Assembly: GCA_964016885.1 (NCBI GenBank)
Contig: OZ024742.1
Coordinates: forward strand, 120,094,001 to 120,158,000
Length of the DNA stretch: 64,000 nucleotides
Origin: Eledone cirrhosa
Lineage: Eukaryota
Direction: 5' to 3'
Of this stretch, positions 2,898-63,692 are shown one piece after another. Below the pieces are notes generated by a model. That model did no database searches. It had not been told where the DNA came from and worked only from the letters and a program-made list of their open reading frames with translations. Each line of letters begins with the position of its first letter. Position 1 is the stretch's first letter. The position numbers were made by a program, and so were the translations under genes.

Positions 2898-2924
2898 CTT
2901 GAACAAGTTTAGCAATTTTTATAT
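2898..2924 (-). CDS. Candidate 27-nt phase-1 microexon of the GALNT gene (DIKIAKLVQ)
   Basis: Minus strand tatCTAATttgttttctatacatAAG|ATATAAAAATTGCTAAACTTGTTCAAG|GTAAGA; branch-point-like CTAAT, strong donor, frame-preserving and open in the phase left by the upstream exon. Confidence 0.55.
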
Positions 2925-3794
2925 CTTATGTATAGAAAACAAATTAGATAAGCGCATAAAATTAAGAAGAAAAAAACCCTAACAGAAACAACTTTCTACT
3001 TAACGCTAAGGTTTTTAAACGAGTGTGTTGGAACATTACAAGAGAGAAGAAAAGTAATTAGGCATTTCTTTGTCATACTGCTAGTCTAATTATGAAACAG
3101 ATTATATATTAAGATCATGAACAAATTCAAAACAAAGTTCAACAGCAACAACAATAATAACATTAAAAAATTTAACATTTCTTCAAGAAATTTCTAGATT
3201 CTCTTTCAACAGTTAAGACTCAGATTATATAAAAATAATACATGAAGTAATTAAAGACATTGGCATATGTATATCAAAAAAGAAAAGATAAAAAATAACA
3301 AAAAGTACCACAAAGAAAAATCAAAATACATTGATGTTCTTGTTAAAAAACAACAAATAAAAAAAATCTAATCAGGTTCTAACTTGATTAAAAGGATATG
3401 AGAGATTTTGTTTTTCTAAGCTAGTTCTATTTTTTTTAATTGTCAATTTTCTATGGAGAAAATTCAGAACACCTGCTTTAATATTGTAATTAAAATATTT
3501 AATATGATGGGAGAATTTCTTCTGTGCTATATAATTCCCTTTTCTTGGCAACATTTTCTTAAATTTGCATCTATACCAAGAAGTCTATTTAATCCATTCC
3601 CTGAATCGTGTACTTTCTATAACTTTAATTCTCATTACAATTACATTTTTTTATCATAATGAAAAAACAACAAATTAACTGAGAAAATGAAGGGGAAAAA
3701 AATCAGTTGCTTGTTTAGTTTTCACAATCAATTGTTGGAAGGAGTGGCTAATACTATAAATTATCATTTATTGAAATTATTATTAGTGTTATTT

Positions 3795-4010
3795 CTGTGG
3801 TTGCCAGAATTGTTAGTGTTAGACAATATGCCATGTGGTATTTGTCCTGGCTCTTTGTGGTCTCAGTTCAAATTCTGCCATGGTCAACTTTGTCTTTCAT
3901 CCTCGTAGGATCAATAAAATCAAGTACCAGCAAAGGAATGGGGTTGATTTAATCAACTTACACTTCTCTCAAATTGCTGGCCTTGTGTCTAAATCAAAAA
4001 CCATTATTAT
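3795..4010 (+). mobile_element. Diverged copy of the Nin/Deu-core SINE
   Basis: CAGTTCAAATTC B box, CTTTCATCCTCGTAGGATCAATAAAAT core, GCTGGCCTTGTG..AAACCATTATT tail. Confidence 0.75.
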
Positions 4011-4274
4011 CCCAATGAGGGCAGAAGTTAGACATTTTTGGGGGATGGGGGTGTAATTATTATTTCAACAGAAAAGATAAAATATAGGACTAAATAAATG
4101 CCTTATGGTACTTAGATGCATTACTTTAACACCTGTTGATCTTAACGTTACAGTATCAATAAAACCATGAACAGCTAAGTTCTGAACTTGATTGATTTAA
4201 ACTGTATCTTTCCTTTACAAATCTTGTGTTGAGATGTGAAAGTATTAAAGAAATTATCATTATAATAATCATTA

Positions 4275-4450
4275 GTGCAGTGAATTGGCGGAAATGACAT
4301 TAAGTTACATTCTGTTACATTCTTTTGCATTCAGATTTCAAATCCAACTGAAGTCAATTTTGTTATTTATTCTTCTGGGGTTGATAAAATAAATACTGGT
4401 TGATTTAATCAGCTACACTCCTCTGGCTTTATACCAAAGTTAGAAATTCT
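4275..4450 (+). mobile_element. Old degenerate SINE copy, same family (a minus-strand partner lies at ~4735-4870)
   Basis: GATTTCAAATCC..GGGGTTGATAAAATAAATACTGGTTGATTTAATC. Confidence 0.6.
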
Positions 4451-5494
4451 CCTCCACCTTCACCTGTTTCATTATTAGTGCATGTACTCTCCCCTCTCTC
4501 ATTCCATAATTCTAATAACATCTGCCATTTTCTTTCAGGTATTTCTGTACCTACAGTAAAGGCTTGTGAGGTAAAAACCGATAGGGCTCTGCTAAAGACA
4601 CTCAAGGGCCAGGAGGTCGTGGTGTTAAAACAGGCCATTAAAGTCTATCACCCAAGTGATTTGAACTCAGAATGCAAAGAGCTGAACCAAATGCCATAAG
4701 GCATTCTATCTAATGAGACCACCAATTTATAGTGGTACTTCATTAATCAATCCAAGAATGATTGAAATGAAAAGCTGACTTCAGTGGGATTTAAACTGAG
4801 AATACACAGAGCTGGAATAAATACCACAAGACATTTTGTCTGACAGTCTAATACTTTTACAAACAGGTTACTGATACAGAGAGCAAAGGAGATTGTAAAA
4901 ATGTTAGATAATAAAGAAATGCTTTTGTTAGCAGAATTGAAGTGAAAAAGGTTTGTTATCAACACATGCCACAATGCAGCAGCTTTCAATTTAAATAGTT
5001 CTTGGGAAAGGGGGGAGATGTTCAAACTTCTTTCCCCTTAACCATTTTGTTATATTTTGAATGACAATCATTGCCCATGATTTTCAAATAAGTCTTTTAA
5101 GAATTCAGAATTTGGGGGGATCCAGTAAACTAAAGTAAAGAATTCAATTTTTATTATGATGCAGTCATAATGCTGTTTTGTCTTGCTAATGTGGCTTCAT
5201 GTGGTACAGAATGTTAAGAGTTAAACTAGTGTTTGGAGTATAACTGAAAGGTTCTTACAGAAAATTAAAATGGAATGCTTTTAGATAAATAAAAACACTT
5301 TAAAACAAAAGGTTTTGTATTGTAGAAGGGTTAACAACCATAATACCACCAATACCATGTTGGGTCCCATAACTTACTGGGTTATAGGGGCACCACTGAG
5401 AACTCCGGCTTTGGTTAAAATATGGTGCTCTCAACAGAGAGTGTGATTAGATATTTTACTAAAATTAATAGTTTTGGCTTCTCATGTTGCTGCT

Positions 5495-5690
5495 TTGATT
5501 CAAGTCAACCCTGATTAAGCAAGCTAATAACTAAAGACATTCCAATTATGAGCACTCCATTTTTTCAGAGGTACTATGAATTATCTGATGCCTCCTTCTG
5601 TATTTAAAATGGTAGAGTGTGATTTGAGGGTAGTTTGACTGCTATTTCTAGCAGGTTTAGAAACTACATCGAGGCTGCTTTGTTGATTCT
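5495..5690 (+). repeat. Old interspersed repeat, related copies at ~7440-7610 (-) and ~54030-54190 (+)
   Basis: Shared motifs AAAGACATTCCA, GTGTGATTTGA and GCTATTTCTAGCAGGT. Confidence 0.55.
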
Positions 5691-8600
5691 AAATAAGAAA
5701 TGGTTTAAATTTTGCTGGACTTGACTTAATATTTCCGCCTTGTAATAATGGTATGATACATGAGTAGTGATCTCAAAAACATATTCAGTTGTAAAGGAAT
5801 CACCAAAGACTTCACCTTCATGTAATAAACCACTCTAATCCTGTTGATTTACTGCTTCTGTCTCAGGTTGTTGATAACCAGGTGTTAACCTCTCTGAGGG
5901 AGTGGGTATCCCTGAATCAGCTACATACAGGTGTCAGCCAATTCATTCCAGACATGCATCACTGGAACAGACTGCAGAACACATACTGAATGAGTGCTGG
6001 GATCTCTGCCTATCTGAGAGATTAGACCTCACACACCCTAATCCTACTACCAGGAGCCAGTTGGATGTCACATGACTACTGTCTCATAAGAAAGAAGATG
6101 AAGAACCACTCTAATCTATAAATTACAGTTGATCTCAGAACTGCATGTTAACAAAACACTTCACAATTTTAAATTGTTGTCAATTCTTGTTGTTACTACT
6201 TCCAGCAATTTAGCCACCCCTTTGATACCAACTTTATCTGAAACTATTTCAATATGAAACTGTTCATTCTAAAGTGTTCATATAAAATTTAAACCTTCCA
6301 TTATGATTTTATACAAGAATTTGTGAAGTTATCTTTCAAATACCAACATAATCATGAAAGAAATAGTTATATTACTGTTCATCTAACTTCTTGATTTTAA
6401 ACATTAATAGAAAATCACAGGTGACATCTTTTATGAAAAATATAGCAAGAAAAGGGCAAAGATATTCCTATATAGTCAACATTTTTCTCTTTTAATGAAC
6501 TGTTTTTGAACTGCCTTTAAGTTTGCTAGAGCACCCATATGCCTTTTTAAAATCCCAGGCCCCATTAACTATAATATTTCATCCCCTGTGGCTAACAACA
6601 CTCACTTTACTACACCCTAATTAGAAGTATTATTGAGAATGTTAGTTTACATTCCAATCATAACAGATAATGGCACAATTACATTATTATTGGTAATGGT
6701 TAATCTCATTGTTAATTCAAAACCAGATTAAATATTTTAGGTCAATTCATTTATCAGAATTAATGAACTGGAGCTTTCTAAAATCTAATAGATATTTTAT
6801 GTCTAATTAATTCCATGATCAGTAAATCCTCATTATGATGAATAATAGATGAGTCATAATGTATGGTATAGCTGTATGATTTAATGTTCCCTGTTACTGC
6901 CTTTCTCATTAGCCCCTTCCATAGATAATCATGTCCTGTCATCACAGTTGGTAATGCCACCCATTTTAAGAATCCTTTGTCTGTTATACATCCACATGTT
7001 TACCATCATCTAAATACATTTTATTCTATTCACTACACAAGCACTGAGAATTGCCTTCTATTCCTGAATACCAGTATTATATACATGTAGAACAATTATA
7101 ATAGCTACTGTTAAATAGAAGCTTACACAATTCTCATGGAACTCAGCCCTTCACGGCCATGTGTTTAAGAGACATGGAATAAAGGAGCAATAATGGGTGA
7201 ACATAAACCATCAAGGGTGACATCACTCTCAAATGATGAGGATGCCTCTATGCAATCACTGTACCTGCAAGAGATAACAGCCAAACCTTCCTCAATTCCC
7301 TATGCAGTCCTCTATGCACATGCAAGAGATAGCAGCCAAACCTTCTTCAAATCATACCCTAATCTTTTAAAAAAAAGACATTGGATAATGTAGTCTAGAT
7401 ACACTGTGACTGAACAAAAGTTTGGATAGTCAAGGCTGGAGCCAAGCAGCAGCTTAATCTCCTTCAAATCACACCCTATCATCTTAAATAAAGGAAAGGA
7501 TACATTAGATAATGTAATTCTGATACCTCTAAAAAAGCTGTGATCGTCATGGCTGGAATGCCTTTGATCAAAGGTCTGTTCAATTAGGGTTAACCTACAG
7601 CTAAATAACATTATTTTTTATAAATGTATCTACACTAATTGATGAAAATATAAAAAAACTAAATTTCAACAAAGATATTTACAAGCCAGTATACCACTGT
7701 GTATTCCAGTTTTTAAAATAAACACATTATGTCTGTGCATGCCATAAGAACTGACTAAAACGGTTGATGACAGGAAGGGCACCCATCTGTAAATCACTGC
7801 CTCAGAAAACCTAGTCATGCAAGCAGGACAAAAAAGGGACATAAAATTATGATGAGGATAATATTTATAAACCAGATTACAAAATGCACAGTTCAGTTTA
7901 CTTTTTACAAAAAAATTTCCTTCATATATATTTCTTCCTAATAATACTAATTAATTAGCTAGTTTGTTAAACATTTAAATTGGATAGCAGTATCCTAGTT
8001 ACAGAAGAGTTTCTAAACTAGCTCTCAATTTCTAAATTGCTTTTGTGTCACTTTGAAATATAACTTCATAAAAGAATTTTCAATAACTAGATATTATACT
8101 TTTGATAACACTATAACTAAGTTTAATTTTTGTCTAAATAACTCTTGAAGCATCATCATCATCATCATCATCATCATCATATTTGTATTAGTATTTCCTT
8201 TTAGTGGTGACAAAAACTAAACATACTTTTAAGGGCAACTGTGCATGTCTATGTGATATGTCCTTATTTTGATGATCATTTTTTTCATTATACAGTGAGG
8301 ATGAGCATTGCCTATTAAATTTGTTGGATTGCTTAATGGCTTGGCATTTTCCTTATTTTTTTAAACTCCATATTCTCTTCGTTAATCCTAATGATCCTAT
8401 TACTAAGCATTCTCATTGATATTCATGAATTAACTATTGAGCATTCCATAGATGCTTCTACTCTAAATGTTAATATTCAGGCAGAATCAACATAGCTGTG
8501 TGACCAAGACTGAATCTCAAATCACAAATATACACCACCCAATGGGCTTCTGTACAGGTTCCAACTTCCCAATTTCATTCACAAAGCTCGGTTCAACCTA

Positions 8601-9094
8601 AACTTATGAGAGATAACACTTGACCATGAAAATGAAGTTGGAACCTCGTAACTGTTCAACAAACTTAACAATACAGCCATATATCTATAACTATAGGAAC
8701 TGTAGTTATATCTATGTCACATATCCTTGCAAGTTTTATACTTGGAAAACTTTTCAGTCTTTTATTATTTTTGTTCCTATTACCCCCAACCCATCCAAAG
8801 TGAATCCAACAGTGATTCATTTCCATATATCAAAATTTCAAAAGAACCAATTAATTCCATGTCACCATAATTTATTCAAGCATATTTGACTTATTAAACA
8901 CAAGGATATAATAAAAGGAGACAGAAAAAAAATTACAATACAATTTCAAAAATAAAAATAGAGAAAAAAACAATAATAATGATGCACCAATACAATCCAT
9001 ACTTTACATATGGATGTATTAAAATACATGAAAAACATTTTCCAAGCATTTTACTTATTTCTTTTAGTGCCAGTATAAATGAATTTTGGCTTAC

Positions 9095-9121
9095 CTCTTC
9101 TTAACTTACGTTCAGTCTTAT
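9095..9121 (-). CDS. Candidate 27-nt phase-1 microexon (DKTERKLRR) with an internal alternative donor giving 12 nt (DKTE)
   Basis: ttttttcttggtcatAAG|ATAAGACTGAAC/GTAAGTTAAGAAGAG|GTAAGC; both donors are near-consensus and both lengths are multiples of 3. Confidence 0.55.
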
Positions 9122-56788: not shown

Positions 56789-57023
56789 CATTTGGTATTT
56801 TATTGAAGAGTCCACCAAATTTTTTAGGTGCTCCTTCTCCTCCTCCACCACCACCACCACCACCAGGATCTTGATCACTCCTACGCATGCCATCGCCACC
56901 ACATGGTCGACTACTGCCGGCGCAGTCAGTATAGTACATAATGAGAAAGACATCTAAGAGGAACCATACCATCGAAGTGGCCAAGATTATTTTACAGTAC
57001 TGTAGACTCAGACGACTGACCAT
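56789..57023 (-). CDS. GALNT1: First coding exon of a polypeptide N-acetylgalactosaminyltransferase (GALNT1/GALNT13-like): cytoplasmic tail, type II TM helix, Gly-rich stem
   Basis: MVSRLSLQYCKIILATSMVWFLLDVFLIMYYTDC resembles the GALNT1/13 N-terminus ([26 protein letters not shown]); donor ATG|GTAAGC in phase 1; orthology to GALNT1 versus GALNT13 not resolved. Confidence 0.88.
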
Positions 57024-57244
57024 AGCTATAGTTGTCACAACAATCAAAAGACTAAACACTAGTTTTAACTAATATGGGAGTATCCAAAGTAATTCTGGGA
57101 GTCCCTGTTGCTATCACAGACAGTAACAAATGAAAGGGTAAAAACTCAAGTCCAATTGGATCTGTAACCACACATGGTTTCCTTGAATTGTTTACAAAAC
57201 TTGCACATATCTCACAACTTGGCCCAAATAACGACGTAGGTTAT
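57024..57244 (-). other. 5' UTR part of the same exon
   Basis: Acceptor tttttatttttattttgcAG| with AG at 57246-57245; implies an upstream non-coding exon. Confidence 0.65.
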
Positions 57245-57659
57245 CTGCAAAATAAAAATAAAAACACCAAATAAATATATTGTTAATGTAAGTTAAAAAT
57301 AGCATCAGAAAAATTATCCAGAATAAATACAATAATAATCAAACACATATCTTGTTAGATTGTAGAAGCTAGTTTTAATTGAAATGACAGTAAATGGGAA
57401 TAGACAAATTAAATTCAATTAAAAATATTTCATGTCATGATCAACAGTCTATTTAAAACAAAAATAGAAGCAATTGTCATTCTTTTTTTATTTTTTTTTG
57501 CTTCTCTACAGGTATAACTGCAGAAAAGAGTATTTGCCCAACTGATGTTTCCATTGGCAAAAGAAGACAAAAGCTGTTTGCTTGAAATGTAAGGCTTCAC
57601 ACCATAAATTCTTGATTATTAAAATACGTTATTTCCTTGTTTTTGCTGTTGCCGCCATC

Positions 57660-57952
57660 TTAACCATTTAGCATCTACATTACTCTACTATATTTACTAT
57701 TATATTTTCATCGTAAACACTTTATTTCACATAATTACCTCATATAATATCGAATCTACAAGATTTTGATATTTATTTTGAGAACAATACCTTAACATAA
57801 GTATGTTCAACTGTGGTGGAACCACATCTAGTTAAGCTTTGTAGCTGACACTCTTGTGGACACGATATGAAGAAGTATGAGCAGCCAGTTACGGCCGGTT
57901 TGAAGAGAAAGAGGTGAGAGAATTCTGGATGGATTAAATGCTAGAGGCTTAA
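57660..57952 (+). mobile_element. piggyBac-like MITE, second copy
   Basis: TTAACCATTTAGCAT ... ATGCTAGAGGCTTAA; homologous to 48574-48908. Confidence 0.6.
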
Positions 57953-59950: not shown

Positions 59951-61546
59951 GGACTAGATAAATGCGCCAAAGCAACGTTCACCAGAGGAAAGCTGCTGAA
60001 GAGTTCAGACATTAATCTTGATCGGGGGAACGTGATAAGAGAACTTGATCAAGAAAAAACTTACAAATATCTAGGTGTTTGTGAAGGAGACGGAATCAAG
60101 CACTCGACAATGAGGGAAAGGATAAGGAAGGAATGTTACCGCAGAGTAAGAGCAATCTTAAGAACGGAATTGAATGCAAGGAATAGGATCGATGCCATAA
60201 ACACGCTTGCCATACCAGTAGTAACCTACAGTTACAATGTCATCAACTGGTCAAGCACAGAGATCCGTAGGCTCGATACAAAAATTCAAAAATTCTTAAC
60301 CATGCACAGAATGCATCACCCTAAGGCAGATACAGATAGAATATATCTCCCTAGGAAAGAAGGAGGACGTGGGTTAATCCAGTTAGACATTGCGTTGAAA
60401 ACTGCAACAATTGGATTATCTACATATCTAAGGGAATCACATGATTGGATGATCAAACTCGTTTTGAAACACGAAAGCATCAAAAGATCATATTCCATTA
60501 CAAAAGATGCACAAAGATACAGTAATGGACTACAAATTTCAGAAGTCCCATTTACTGTTGAAATGGAAAACACAGAAAAAGCAAAGCAGGTAAAAGTAAC
60601 TGCAAAGAAAGAACTGCTACAGAAACTGGCTAAGAAATGGCAAGAAAAGCCTCTGTATGGAAAATACCCAGAGCGAGCTCACAATCCTGATGTTGACAAA
60701 ACTTTAACCCATCAGTGGTTGGCATCCTCTGGACTGAAATCGGAGACTGAAGGACTGATTATATCAGCACAAGATCAGTGTCTGCCAACAAAAAATTACC
60801 AAGCCGACATAATAAAAAATGGATGCAGCCCATTATGCCGTGTGTGCAAAAAACAACCAGAGACCATTGACCATATAATTTCAATGTGCAGTCCTATAGC
60901 TCCAACCGAATAACTAAACAGGCATGACAGAGCTGCACAATACATACATTGGATAATGTGTAAGCATTTTGACCTGCCCCATCAAAAGAATTGGTGGGAG
61001 CATCAACCACCTCCCATACTTGAAAAAGATCACATCTCAATCTTGTGGAACTTTAGCATCCAAACAGACCGAAAAATAGATGCAAATAGACCTGATATAA
61101 TATTGAAGGACTTTAAAAAGAGGGTATGCCTGCTAATTGATATGTCTGTTCCAATAGACAAGAATGTATCTATAAAAACATTTGAAAAATTGAGCAAGTA
61201 TAAGGACCTGGAGATAGAAATTGGAAAAATGTGGAAATTGAGAACTAAAACAATACCAGTGGTTGTAGGCGCTCTGGGAATGATACCTAAGGGGTCTAAT
61301 GATTACTTATCGCAAATCCCAGGAAACCCACGTATAGGAGAAATACAAAAGATAGTACTAATGGGAACTGCCCATATACTAAGGAAGATTCTGTCAATAT
61401 AAGTACATCACAAGTCTAAACACTAAAGATGCATGTGTGAGTATGTATGTTCTTTCTTGAACATGGCGGACCTTGTTGTCTCTTGAGGTCACTGGTTGTG
61501 ACTTGGTGATAACTCGTATGAACATAAAGCAAGATAAATGCAACTG
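59951..61546 (+). mobile_element. R4/Dong-like non-LTR element (restriction-like endonuclease), 5'-truncated
   Basis: YKYLG, CRVC..ETIDHI..C knuckle, RHD, RPDI..ID..EK..KY; one in-frame TAA at 60911; (AAT)n on both sides. Confidence 0.9.
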
Positions 61547-61572
61547 TAATAATAATAATAATAATGATAATA

Positions 61573-63692
61573 TTGATGTCAGGTGAGGTACCAGAGTGGT
61601 TGACAAAAGGTACCACAGTTCTGGTAATGAAAGACCGAATCAAGGGTAATGATGTTACCAACTATAGACCTTTCACATGTCTGTCCGTAATGTGGAAACT
61701 GTTGACAAGCATTGTGTCTGAGGAAATCTACCATCACCTCCACACAAACAACTTGTTACCGGACGAACAGAAAGGATGCTGAAAGAAGTCCCGTGGTACA
61801 AAGGACCAGTTACTGATTGATAAGATGGTAATGAGGAATTGCAAGAGGAGACACACTGGTCTTGCCATGGGATGGATAGACTACAAAAAGGCATTTGACA
61901 TGGTGCCTCATTCTTGGATCACCAAAAGTCTAGAGATCTTCAAGGTGGCAGATAACATCAGACAGTTGTTGGGCAAAAGTATGAAGTCCTGGAAAACAGA
62001 GTTAACATCAGCTGGAGAATCCTTGGTAGGCGTGAAGATCAAGAGAGGTATCTTCCAGGGAGATAGTCTGTCCCCTCTGTTGTTTGTCCTTGCCCTGATG
62101 CCCCTGACCATTATACTGCGAAAAGTGAGAGCAGGATACAAGTTGGGAAAGGGAGAGCTTACCATCAACCACCTCCTCTTCATGGACGATCTTAAGCTCT
62201 TCGGGAAGAGTGAAAAGGAGTTGGATGTACTTGTTGACACTGTCTGTATTTTCAGCAATGATATATGTATGCAATTTGGTATTAGTAAGTGTGGAGTCCT
62301 TGTGATGAAGAGGGGTAAATTGAGCAGAAGCAACAGAATCCAGGTACCAACAGGTGAGATGATAAAGGAAATTGACACTGAAGAAGGATACACGTATTTG
62401 GGTGTTCTGGAAGCTGATGACATCAAGAACAAAAAAATGAAGGAATTGATAAAATCTGAATACATTCGGAGAGTATAGAGCGTATTAAAGTCACATCTGA
62501 ACAGTAGGAATGCCATAAGTGCAGTAAATTCCCGAGCTGTGTCTATTATTAGGTACAGTGTGGGAATTCTGAGATGGAATGTTGCTGAACAAAAAGAAAT
62601 GGATAGGAAGATTAGGAAGCTATTGACTATCTACAACATGTTCCACAAGAGGAGTGATGTCGATAGACTCTACTTAAGGAGATCTGAAGGTGGAAGAGGT
62701 CTTATCAGCATAGAGGACTGTGTTCAGATGGAGAAAAACAACCTACACAATACGTGACTGATAGTAAGGAGCCAATGCTCAGAATTGTACTGAAGGAGAG
62801 GACAATAGACCAGGGGATGTCCAAGGAGGAAATAACAACGAGGAGTAAGAGCAGCCTTCATGAAAAATCCCTTCATAGTACTTTCTTTGAGAAAACTGAA
62901 TTCAGATATCCACAAACATGGAACTGGTTGAGAAGAGGAGACCTTAAAAAGGCTACAGAAGGAATGCTAATGGCTGCGCAAGAGCAGGCCCTCAAAACGA
63001 AGTGGCTGAAACACCATATTTACAAGGAGGAGGCTAGTCCACTGTGCAGGATCTGTGGAGAGAGAGAGAGGAGACTGTGGCTCACATTGTATCCGAGTGT
63101 AAACACCTCGCCCAGACTCACTATAAAGGCTGGAGACATGATGTGATGGGCAGGGTGATCCACTGGCACCTATGCAAAGTAAACAATTTACCACATTCTG
63201 AGAAGTGGTATGAGCATAAGCCAGAGTCGGTGATAGAAAACGATCAGGTGAAGGTGCTGTGGGATTTTAGGATACAGACGGACAAGAAACTGGAACACAA
63301 TAGACCTGACCTGGTGGTTTTAGACAAGGAAAAAAGATTGTGCCTGATTGTGGATGTGGCTTGCCCATTCGACACGATAGTGCAAGAGAAGGAGAGGGAG
63401 AAAATTAATCGATACCAGGACTTAAAGTCGGAGGTAAAAAGGATTTGGAACTACCATGAAGTCAAAGGGTCCCGATTGTCATAGGTGCACTAGGTACTAT
63501 CTCAAAAGTTTCCAGGGATGGTTAAAGAAAATTGGCCCCGCCCCGCTTTTTGGAACACTTCAAAAGGCATGCTTGCTGGGAACAGCAAGAACCTTCCGAT
63601 ACGTCCTGAATATCTGAGGCTGCAGATAGTGGCTTGATATTCATTTCAACAAACTTTCCAGTTAACTAACATCAATGACTGAGACTCAAAGA
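61573..63692 (+). mobile_element. Second R4/Dong-like element, different family, decayed
   Basis: [43 protein letters not shown]; several stops and frameshifts; (AAT)n flanks. Confidence 0.9.

What the first reader, a model, noticed from the sequence alone, without database searches (positions are those of the whole stretch)
2898..9121. Two look-alike 27-nt microexons for the GALNT stem
Seen: both have the uncommon acceptor CATAAG|ATA, a strong AG|GTAAG donor, a length of 27 nt and an open phase-1 frame matching the upstream exon (DKTERKLRR; DIKIAKLVQ). Such coincidence is unlikely for random intron DNA. Inference: duplicated, alternatively or mutually exclusively spliced microexons that tune the Golgi stem region.
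Basis: partly seen in the sequence, partly recalled or inferred. Interest (0 to 1): 0.7.

Follow-up and report, generated by a model that had tools for sequence, protein, structure and literature searches.

The report
Octopus GALNT1 stem microexon cluster
The two tiny exons match optional exons annotated in other octopuses and belong to a set of four that likely lengthen or shorten the stalk holding a sugar-adding Golgi enzyme; this is a likely ordinary case of alternative splicing, and the two show no sign of being copies of each other.

Summary
Both 27-nt elements are at the stated places. They are the best matches in a 91-kb intron to optional stem peptides in annotated GALNT1 isoforms of Octopus sinensis and O. 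bimaculoides, so they are very likely real cassette microexons. They are not detectably duplicated (10 of 27 bases alike, p=0.30). They are not mutually exclusive: 4 of 15 listed isoforms carry both. Exon A is 30 nt in the other two species, so the equal length is not shared. The 15 isoforms show 10 stem combinations. B and C never occur together there, so they may be the exclusive pair. One transcript-type contig from a related species shows the skip-all junction; no inclusion junction was seen directly. Likely role: tuning stem length (0-21 residues) and charge. Bolder reading: long A adds a dibasic cleavage site that its inner donor removes. New member of a known kind; modest interest.

The parts
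56789..57244 (-). Upstream exon with the start codon (57023), transmembrane segment and Gly-rich proximal stem of a GALNT1/13-type enzyme; ends in phase 1
   Evidence: tblastn of Octopus proteins, 82-87% identity; a same-species contig in run X21 stops matching at 57244, the exon edge
14410..14418 (-).
   Evidence: Only AG-(VLQ-coding 9 nt)-GT match in the intron (sequence); VLQ insert in O. sinensis isoforms P0013, P0014, P0015, P0017, P0020, P0026
9095..9121 (-). Microexon A, long form, 27 nt (DKTERKLRR), AAG acceptor; orthologue DKTERKLLKR is 30 nt
   Evidence: single match in own genome
9110..9121 (-). Microexon A, short form, 12 nt (DKTE), through an inner GTAAGT donor; lacks the basic tail
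   Evidence: Donor in the sequence; the matching KTE-only insert is in O. sinensis isoform X11, P0026
2898..2924 (-). Microexon B, 27 nt (DIKIAKLVQ), AAG acceptor; orthologues DFKIEKLIE and DFKIGKLIE. The fourth member, exon C (27 nt, GQHFIPVLD; orthologue GERLIPVLN), lies outside the window, 5,418 nt downstream of B, at G000:C3:120091479-120091453 (L001 7479-7453, minus strand)
   Evidence: B; single match in own genome. C; top of 562 candidates, 1 of 200 shuffled peptides reach its score

Best explanation
The two elements match annotated optional exons of other octopuses and are likely cassette microexons in a four-exon array (9, 27 or 12, 27, 27 nt) in the stem intron of an octopus GALNT1/13-type O-glycosyltransferase, where combinatorial splicing likely adds 0-21 residues to the stalk between membrane anchor and catalytic domain. 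Shown: all four exons are present, in the order seen in the annotated isoforms, and all 24 combinations tried stay in frame. Inferred: the weak AAG acceptors of A and B make skipping the default and inclusion regulated. Inferred: B and C, not A and B, are the alternative pair. Inferred: the changed stem length and charge alter Golgi retention, reach or shedding of an enzyme whose catalytic domain is unchanged.
For: Stem inserts matching all four exons in RefSeq isoforms of O. sinensis and O. bimaculoides; 10 distinct combinations among 15 listed of 34 members. Each of A, B, C is the top hit of 562 candidates, and the genomic order mu0-A-B-C equals the protein order. All 24 combinations are stop-free. 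The skip-all junction is in a transcript-type contig of run X11, another species: exon 3 runs straight into the end of exon 1. AAG acceptors occur only at A and B among 19 acceptors examined in the gene. The inserts fall in the low-confidence stem, residues 33-109 of the P0013 model. The same junction carries unrelated optional inserts in clams, oysters, mussels and a ribbon worm. Stem sequence and length affect secretion of another Golgi transferase, FUT8 (PMC12927314, passages).
Against: No inclusion junction was seen directly, in this or any species: of 4 runs laid on exon 3, one gave the skip form and three gave no contig. Inclusion rests on automated RefSeq models of two other species; that such isoforms come from RNA alignments is recalled, not checked. 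No tissue data. B/C exclusion rests on 6 B-containing and 3 C-containing isoforms with none shared, 19 members unseen, and no pairing mechanism found. The peptides drift between species (B and C: 5 of 9 residues identical to O. sinensis), which also fits weak constraint. The functional step is untested.
Confidence: 0.75

Rival explanations
1. Splicing switch for shedding: long A ends in a dibasic, proprotein-convertase-like site; the inner 12-nt donor or skipping removes it, so splicing decides between Golgi-anchored and released enzyme. This is compatible with the best explanation and more specific.
For: A motif of R at P1 with two basic residues among P2/P4/P6 (rule recalled, from no call) appears only in combinations with long A: 8 of 24. 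It is kept in O. sinensis and O. bimaculoides despite the 3-nt length difference. The inner donor is shared with O. sinensis (P0026). Furin and SPPL3 shedding of Golgi transferases, including Lunatic fringe, is described (PMC9156939, passages). The closest PDB chain is named 'GALNT1 soluble form'.
Against: The canonical RXXR is present here (RKLR) but absent from the orthologue ending (LLKR). The same loose motif occurs in 11 non-octopus stems among 81 distinct stems, often at the constitutive junction, so it is common. No paper on furin cleavage of a GalNAc-T stem turned up in the listings.
Confidence: 0.2
2. One reading: A and B are tandem duplicates that are spliced in a mutually exclusive way.
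For: Same acceptor hexamer, same donor pentamer and same length in this species. Very short old duplicates can lose detectable similarity.
Against: 10 of 27 identity, p=0.30, and null flanks; different lengths in two other species; co-inclusion in 4 of 15 listed isoforms.
Confidence: 0.04
3. Real but nearly neutral exons: a disordered stem tolerates exonised intron pieces that are included at low level with no selected function.
For: Peptides diverge faster than the catalytic exons, which are mostly 92-100% identical. Inserts at this junction are unrelated between lineages. None was seen in the 8 cuttlefish-cluster members or the 1 Argonauta model.
Against: All four exons, their order, their frame and the inner donor of A are shared between this genome and O. 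sinensis (A, B and C also with O. bimaculoides); the one length change is a multiple of 3.
Confidence: 0.2
4. Chance splice-like strings in intron DNA.
For: Microexon-like candidates of any length are no more common than in shuffles (3 against 2.17).
Against: Top orthology scores with 0 of 200 shuffles reaching them, and the correct order.
Confidence: 0.02

Closest known systems
RefSeq GALNT1 isoforms of Octopus sinensis (e.g. XP_029633241.1 X1, XP_029633286.1 X4) and O. bimaculoides (XP_014774705.1 X1)
   Same: Same gene and the same stem inserts in the same order; the 9-nt exon and the 12-nt short form of A were seen in O. sinensis only
   Different: A is 27 nt here and 30 nt there; B and C peptides differ at 4 of 9 residues; these are automated models, not a described mechanism
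Optional stem exons of the same gene in Dreissena, Mercenaria, Ruditapes, Crassostrea/Magallana, Mytilus and Lineus
   Same: Inserts at the same protein junction, present in some isoforms and absent in others; Lineus has a 4-residue plus a 17-residue pair
   Different: Mostly 14-41 residues long, with no evident sequence likeness to the octopus exons (judged by eye; no alignment test)
eMIC (SRRM3/4, Srrm234)-dependent neural microexons
   Same: Size of 27 nt or less, frame-preserving, weak 3' splice sites at A and B
   Different: No UGC within 30 nt of any of the four acceptors; neural specificity unknown (features from PMC8797185 passages)
Tandem duplicated mutually exclusive exons of GALNT13 / Pgant5 / gly-5 (PMC9741552, passage; pgant5 181-nt pair in the PMC8797185 supplement)
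   Same: Same gene family uses alternative exons
   Different: Those are homologous exon pairs; A and B are not detectably homologous and are co-included. The lectin-domain exon pair further down this gene is the likelier counterpart

Membership tests
GALNT1/13-type polypeptide GalNAc-transferase gene | N-terminal membrane anchor, stem, GT2 catalytic domain, ricin-type lectin domain | tested here: met
   12 exons mapped by tblastn with P0001 at 82-100% identity; orthologue carries PF00535 and PF00652; best PDB hit GALNT1, E 3e-254
Cassette microexon | At most 27 nt, canonical AG/GT, frame-preserving | tested here: met
Cassette microexon | Both included and skipped transcripts exist | tested here: inconclusive
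   Skip junction seen in run X11 of another species; inclusion only through RefSeq models of two other species; neither form seen directly in this species
Tandem duplicated mutually exclusive exons (A versus B) | Sequence homology between the two exons | tested here: not met
   10 of 27, p=0.30; flanks null
Tandem duplicated mutually exclusive exons (A versus B) | Never included together | tested here: not met
   Together in 4 of 15 listed isoforms
Mutually exclusive exons (B versus C) | Never included together; same length and phase | tested here: inconclusive
   Both 27 nt; 0 of 15 listed isoforms hold both, 19 of 34 unseen; 9 of 27 identity, p=0.35; 5,418 nt apart
eMIC-dependent neural microexons | UGC close to the 3' splice site | tested here: not met
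   None within 30 nt for mu0, A, B, C; nearest is B at -32
eMIC-dependent neural microexons | Long AG exclusion zone and strong CUAAY branch point | tested here: inconclusive
   Zones 50, 141, 52, 26 nt, within the 17-144 range of the other exons; CTRAY at B (-23) and C (-13) only
eMIC-dependent neural microexons | Neuron-specific inclusion dependent on Srrm234 eMIC | not testable with these tools
   No tissue-labelled raw reads were offered
Furin-shed glycosyltransferases (Lunatic fringe type) | Conserved RXXR site in the stem, with demonstrated cleavage | tested here: inconclusive
   RXXR here but not at the orthologue's end; a looser dibasic motif is shared; cleavage not testable

The most novel reading that the evidence does not exclude
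An octopus microexon code on the GALNT1 stem works as a shedding switch: the long form of exon A installs a convertase-type dibasic site, its inner donor deletes it, and the alternative exons B and C set the residues after the cut, so splicing decides whether the enzyme that starts O-glycosylation stays in the Golgi or is released.
Probability: 0.15. Interest if true: 0.65.

Novelty: new member of a known kind. Interest (0 to 1): 0.3.

Why it matters
Microexon splicing in cephalopods is little described in the searched library: 'microexon' with 'octopus' gave 3 listed papers and 'cephalopod' with 'alternative splicing' and 'microexons' gave 1, none about this gene by title, abstract start or the passages read. 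A four-exon array in one glycosyltransferase stem, at a junction where bivalves and a ribbon worm carry their own optional inserts, is a compact case for asking what stem length and stem cleavage do for GalNAc-transferases. The exons are already in automated annotations of two Octopus species, and short exons in disordered linkers are common (general knowledge), so the surprise is modest unless the shedding switch holds.

Tried and rejected
Duplication of A and B: rejected. Origin from a repeated element: each 181-nt stretch around A and B has one match in the genome, itself, though that search skips simple repeats. Junction evidence: no RNA holder was listed for this species by record. Run X21 holds a 1,762-nt contig that matches 56878-57244 and looks spliced, but X21, X18 and X14 gave no contig on exon 3; the tool warns that such blanks can be false, so nothing is concluded from them. 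A search with the stem alone (P0013 residues 66-125) returned only the Octopus cluster, 1 of 25 candidates. A second look-up of the cluster listed the same 15 of 34 members. RNA pairing for B/C exclusion: one 12-nt complement to the end of exon C lies at window 669, but 194 of at most 500 random intron windows have such a match, so it is chance-level. eMIC motif: not met. The structure model (mean pLDDT 62) places the inserts in a stretch under 50; its helix at 97-107 is not trusted. Pfam found nothing in exon 1 alone. Papers: listings only; term passages from 10.64898/2026.09.05.749416 (no 'galnt'), PMC13703833, PMC11635297, PMC5288242, PMC8797185 (plus one supplementary table), PMC9741552, PMC9156939, PMC12927314 and 10.1101/2021.02.15.431224; none read whole. 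The supplements of the bioRxiv 20-species splicing study, which includes O. bimaculoides, were not seen and may list these exons. No general source for the P2/P4/P6 convertase rule was found, so it stays recalled. Earlier scan notes: none.

Full report
Setting. The window is G000:C3:120094001-120158000. A minus-strand exon at 57244-56789 encodes a membrane anchor and Gly-rich stem and ends in phase 1. Its closest proteins are annotated Octopus GALNT1 isoforms (86% identity). With P0001 as query, tblastn places 12 exons of the gene over about 177 kb at E far below 0.001, 11 of them downstream of the window; P0002 adds one alternative lectin exon. The orthologue's best PDB match is GALNT1. The next constitutive exon begins at G000:C3:120059951, so the stem intron is 90,837 nt.

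Observation. Both elements are as described: 9121-9095 and 2924-2898, 27 nt, CATAAG|ATA, AG|GTAAG, open in phase 1. Two such 27-nt candidates are more than shuffles give (1 of 200), but that test is post hoc, and over all 3n lengths of 6-51 nt the count is ordinary (70 of 200). The case rests on orthology.

Orthology. Of 34 members of the Octopus cluster, 15 were listed. Their stems carry inserts at exactly this junction: VLQ, DKTERKLLKR (or KTE alone), DFKIEKLIE or DFKIGKLIE, and GERLIPVLN. In this genome, A, B and a third 27-nt exon C (outside the window, G000:C3:120091479-453) are each the best of 562 loose candidates. Shuffled peptides reach their scores in 0, 0 and 1 of 200 trials. A 9-nt exon for VLQ lies at 14418-14410, and A has an inner GTAAGT donor at 9110 that gives the 12-nt form. 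The genomic order mu0-A-B-C equals the order in the proteins. Spacings are 5.3, 6.2 and 5.4 kb. All 24 combinations are stop-free.

A and B share 10 of 27 bases (p=0.30) and their flanks are unrelated. A is 30 nt in O. sinensis and O. bimaculoides, so the equal length is not shared with those species. A and B occur together in 4 of the 15 listed isoforms (P0001, P0013, P0015, P0022). The 15 show 10 stem combinations. B is in 6, C is in 3, and none has both. The isoforms numbered X1 are mu0+A+B (613 aa) and A+B (608 aa); if RefSeq numbers by length (recalled; the listed lengths do fall with the number), no A+B+C form is annotated. B+C alone cannot be excluded among the 19 unseen members. So B and C may be the alternative pair, but they are not detectably homologous either (9 of 27, p=0.35), and no pairing mechanism was found.

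RNA evidence. One of 4 runs laid on exon 3 gave a contig (X11, another species, 90-95% alike). Its loose end is the end of exon 1, which is the skip-all junction (read by hand, 27 of 30 letters match the window's exon end). No inclusion junction was seen, so inclusion rests on automated models of two other species. No tissue information was available.

Wider context. The same protein junction carries optional inserts in Dreissena (41 aa), Mercenaria and Ruditapes (35), oysters (34, 38, 38+14), Mytilus (22) and Lineus (4 and 17), with no evident likeness to the octopus exons. None was seen in the 8 members of the cuttlefish cluster or the one Argonauta model, which is weak evidence of absence. 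The likely reading is a long-standing splicing hotspot that was filled separately in each lineage (inferred).

Mechanism. Shown: the exons change only the stem, a low-confidence stretch (residues 33-109) between anchor and catalytic domain in the P0013 model, by 0-21 residues in the combinations annotated elsewhere. Inferred: AAG acceptors, found only at A and B among 19 acceptors examined, favour skipping unless inclusion is promoted. The UGC mark of eMIC targets (PMC8797185, passages) is missing within 30 nt of all four acceptors, so I do not file them as eMIC exons. Inferred: stem changes affect retention, reach or shedding, as stem sequence and length do for FUT8 (PMC12927314, passages). 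The sharper rival is a shedding switch. A convertase-like dibasic motif (rule recalled) appears only with long A and is kept in this genome, O. sinensis and O. bimaculoides, and furin shedding of Lunatic fringe is a precedent (PMC9156939, passages). Against it, canonical RXXR is not kept in the orthologues, and the loose motif occurs in 11 non-octopus stems among 81. I give it 15-20%.

Verdict. Very likely real exons (about 0.95), part of a four-microexon stem array that is already in automated annotations of Octopus (all four in O. sinensis, three in O. bimaculoides among the listed isoforms). No paper on it was found in the searches. New member of a known kind; interest 0.3.

Noticed in passing
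G000:C3:119994332-119994195 and 119987520-119987389 (L010, L011): Two alternative lectin-domain exons of the same gene, swapped between annotated isoforms in octopus, cuttlefish, chiton and bivalves; likely the counterpart of the duplicated exons reported for GALNT13/Pgant5/gly-5.
   Followed up: partly
L004 6985-6974, minus strand (G000:C3:120060985-974): A further 12-nt in-frame candidate with a good pyrimidine tract, CAG acceptor and GTGAGT donor, 1 kb before exon 3; not in the 15 listed isoforms.
   Followed up: partly
window 20017-23280 (+), partial copies at 17551-18300 (-) and in L020: A 1,088-codon stop-free frame that reads like an endonuclease plus reverse-transcriptase LINE element inside the stem intron (family judged by eye, not searched).
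   Followed up: no
window 27925-28512 (+), 42145-43437 (+), 61528-62754 (+): Other retroelement-like frames: a GIY-YIG-like piece, an endonuclease-like frame and a broken reverse-transcriptase-like frame (judged by eye).
   Followed up: no
window about 29700-34900, 24900-26800: Very long (TA)n-type microsatellite tracts, about 5 kb and 2 kb.
   Followed up: no
window 57650-57900: A short repeat with very high contig depth in run X21, upstream of exon 1; probably a highly repeated or transcribed element.
   Followed up: no
window 669-658, minus strand: 12-nt perfect complement to the 3' end and first donor base of exon C, in the B-C intron; chance-level by control.
   Followed up: yes
proteins P0105/P0106 (Mytilus), P0193/P0125 (Lineus): In these lineages the dibasic motif is formed by the skip junction and loses its P6 lysine when the insert is included, the reverse of the octopus case.
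   Followed up: partly
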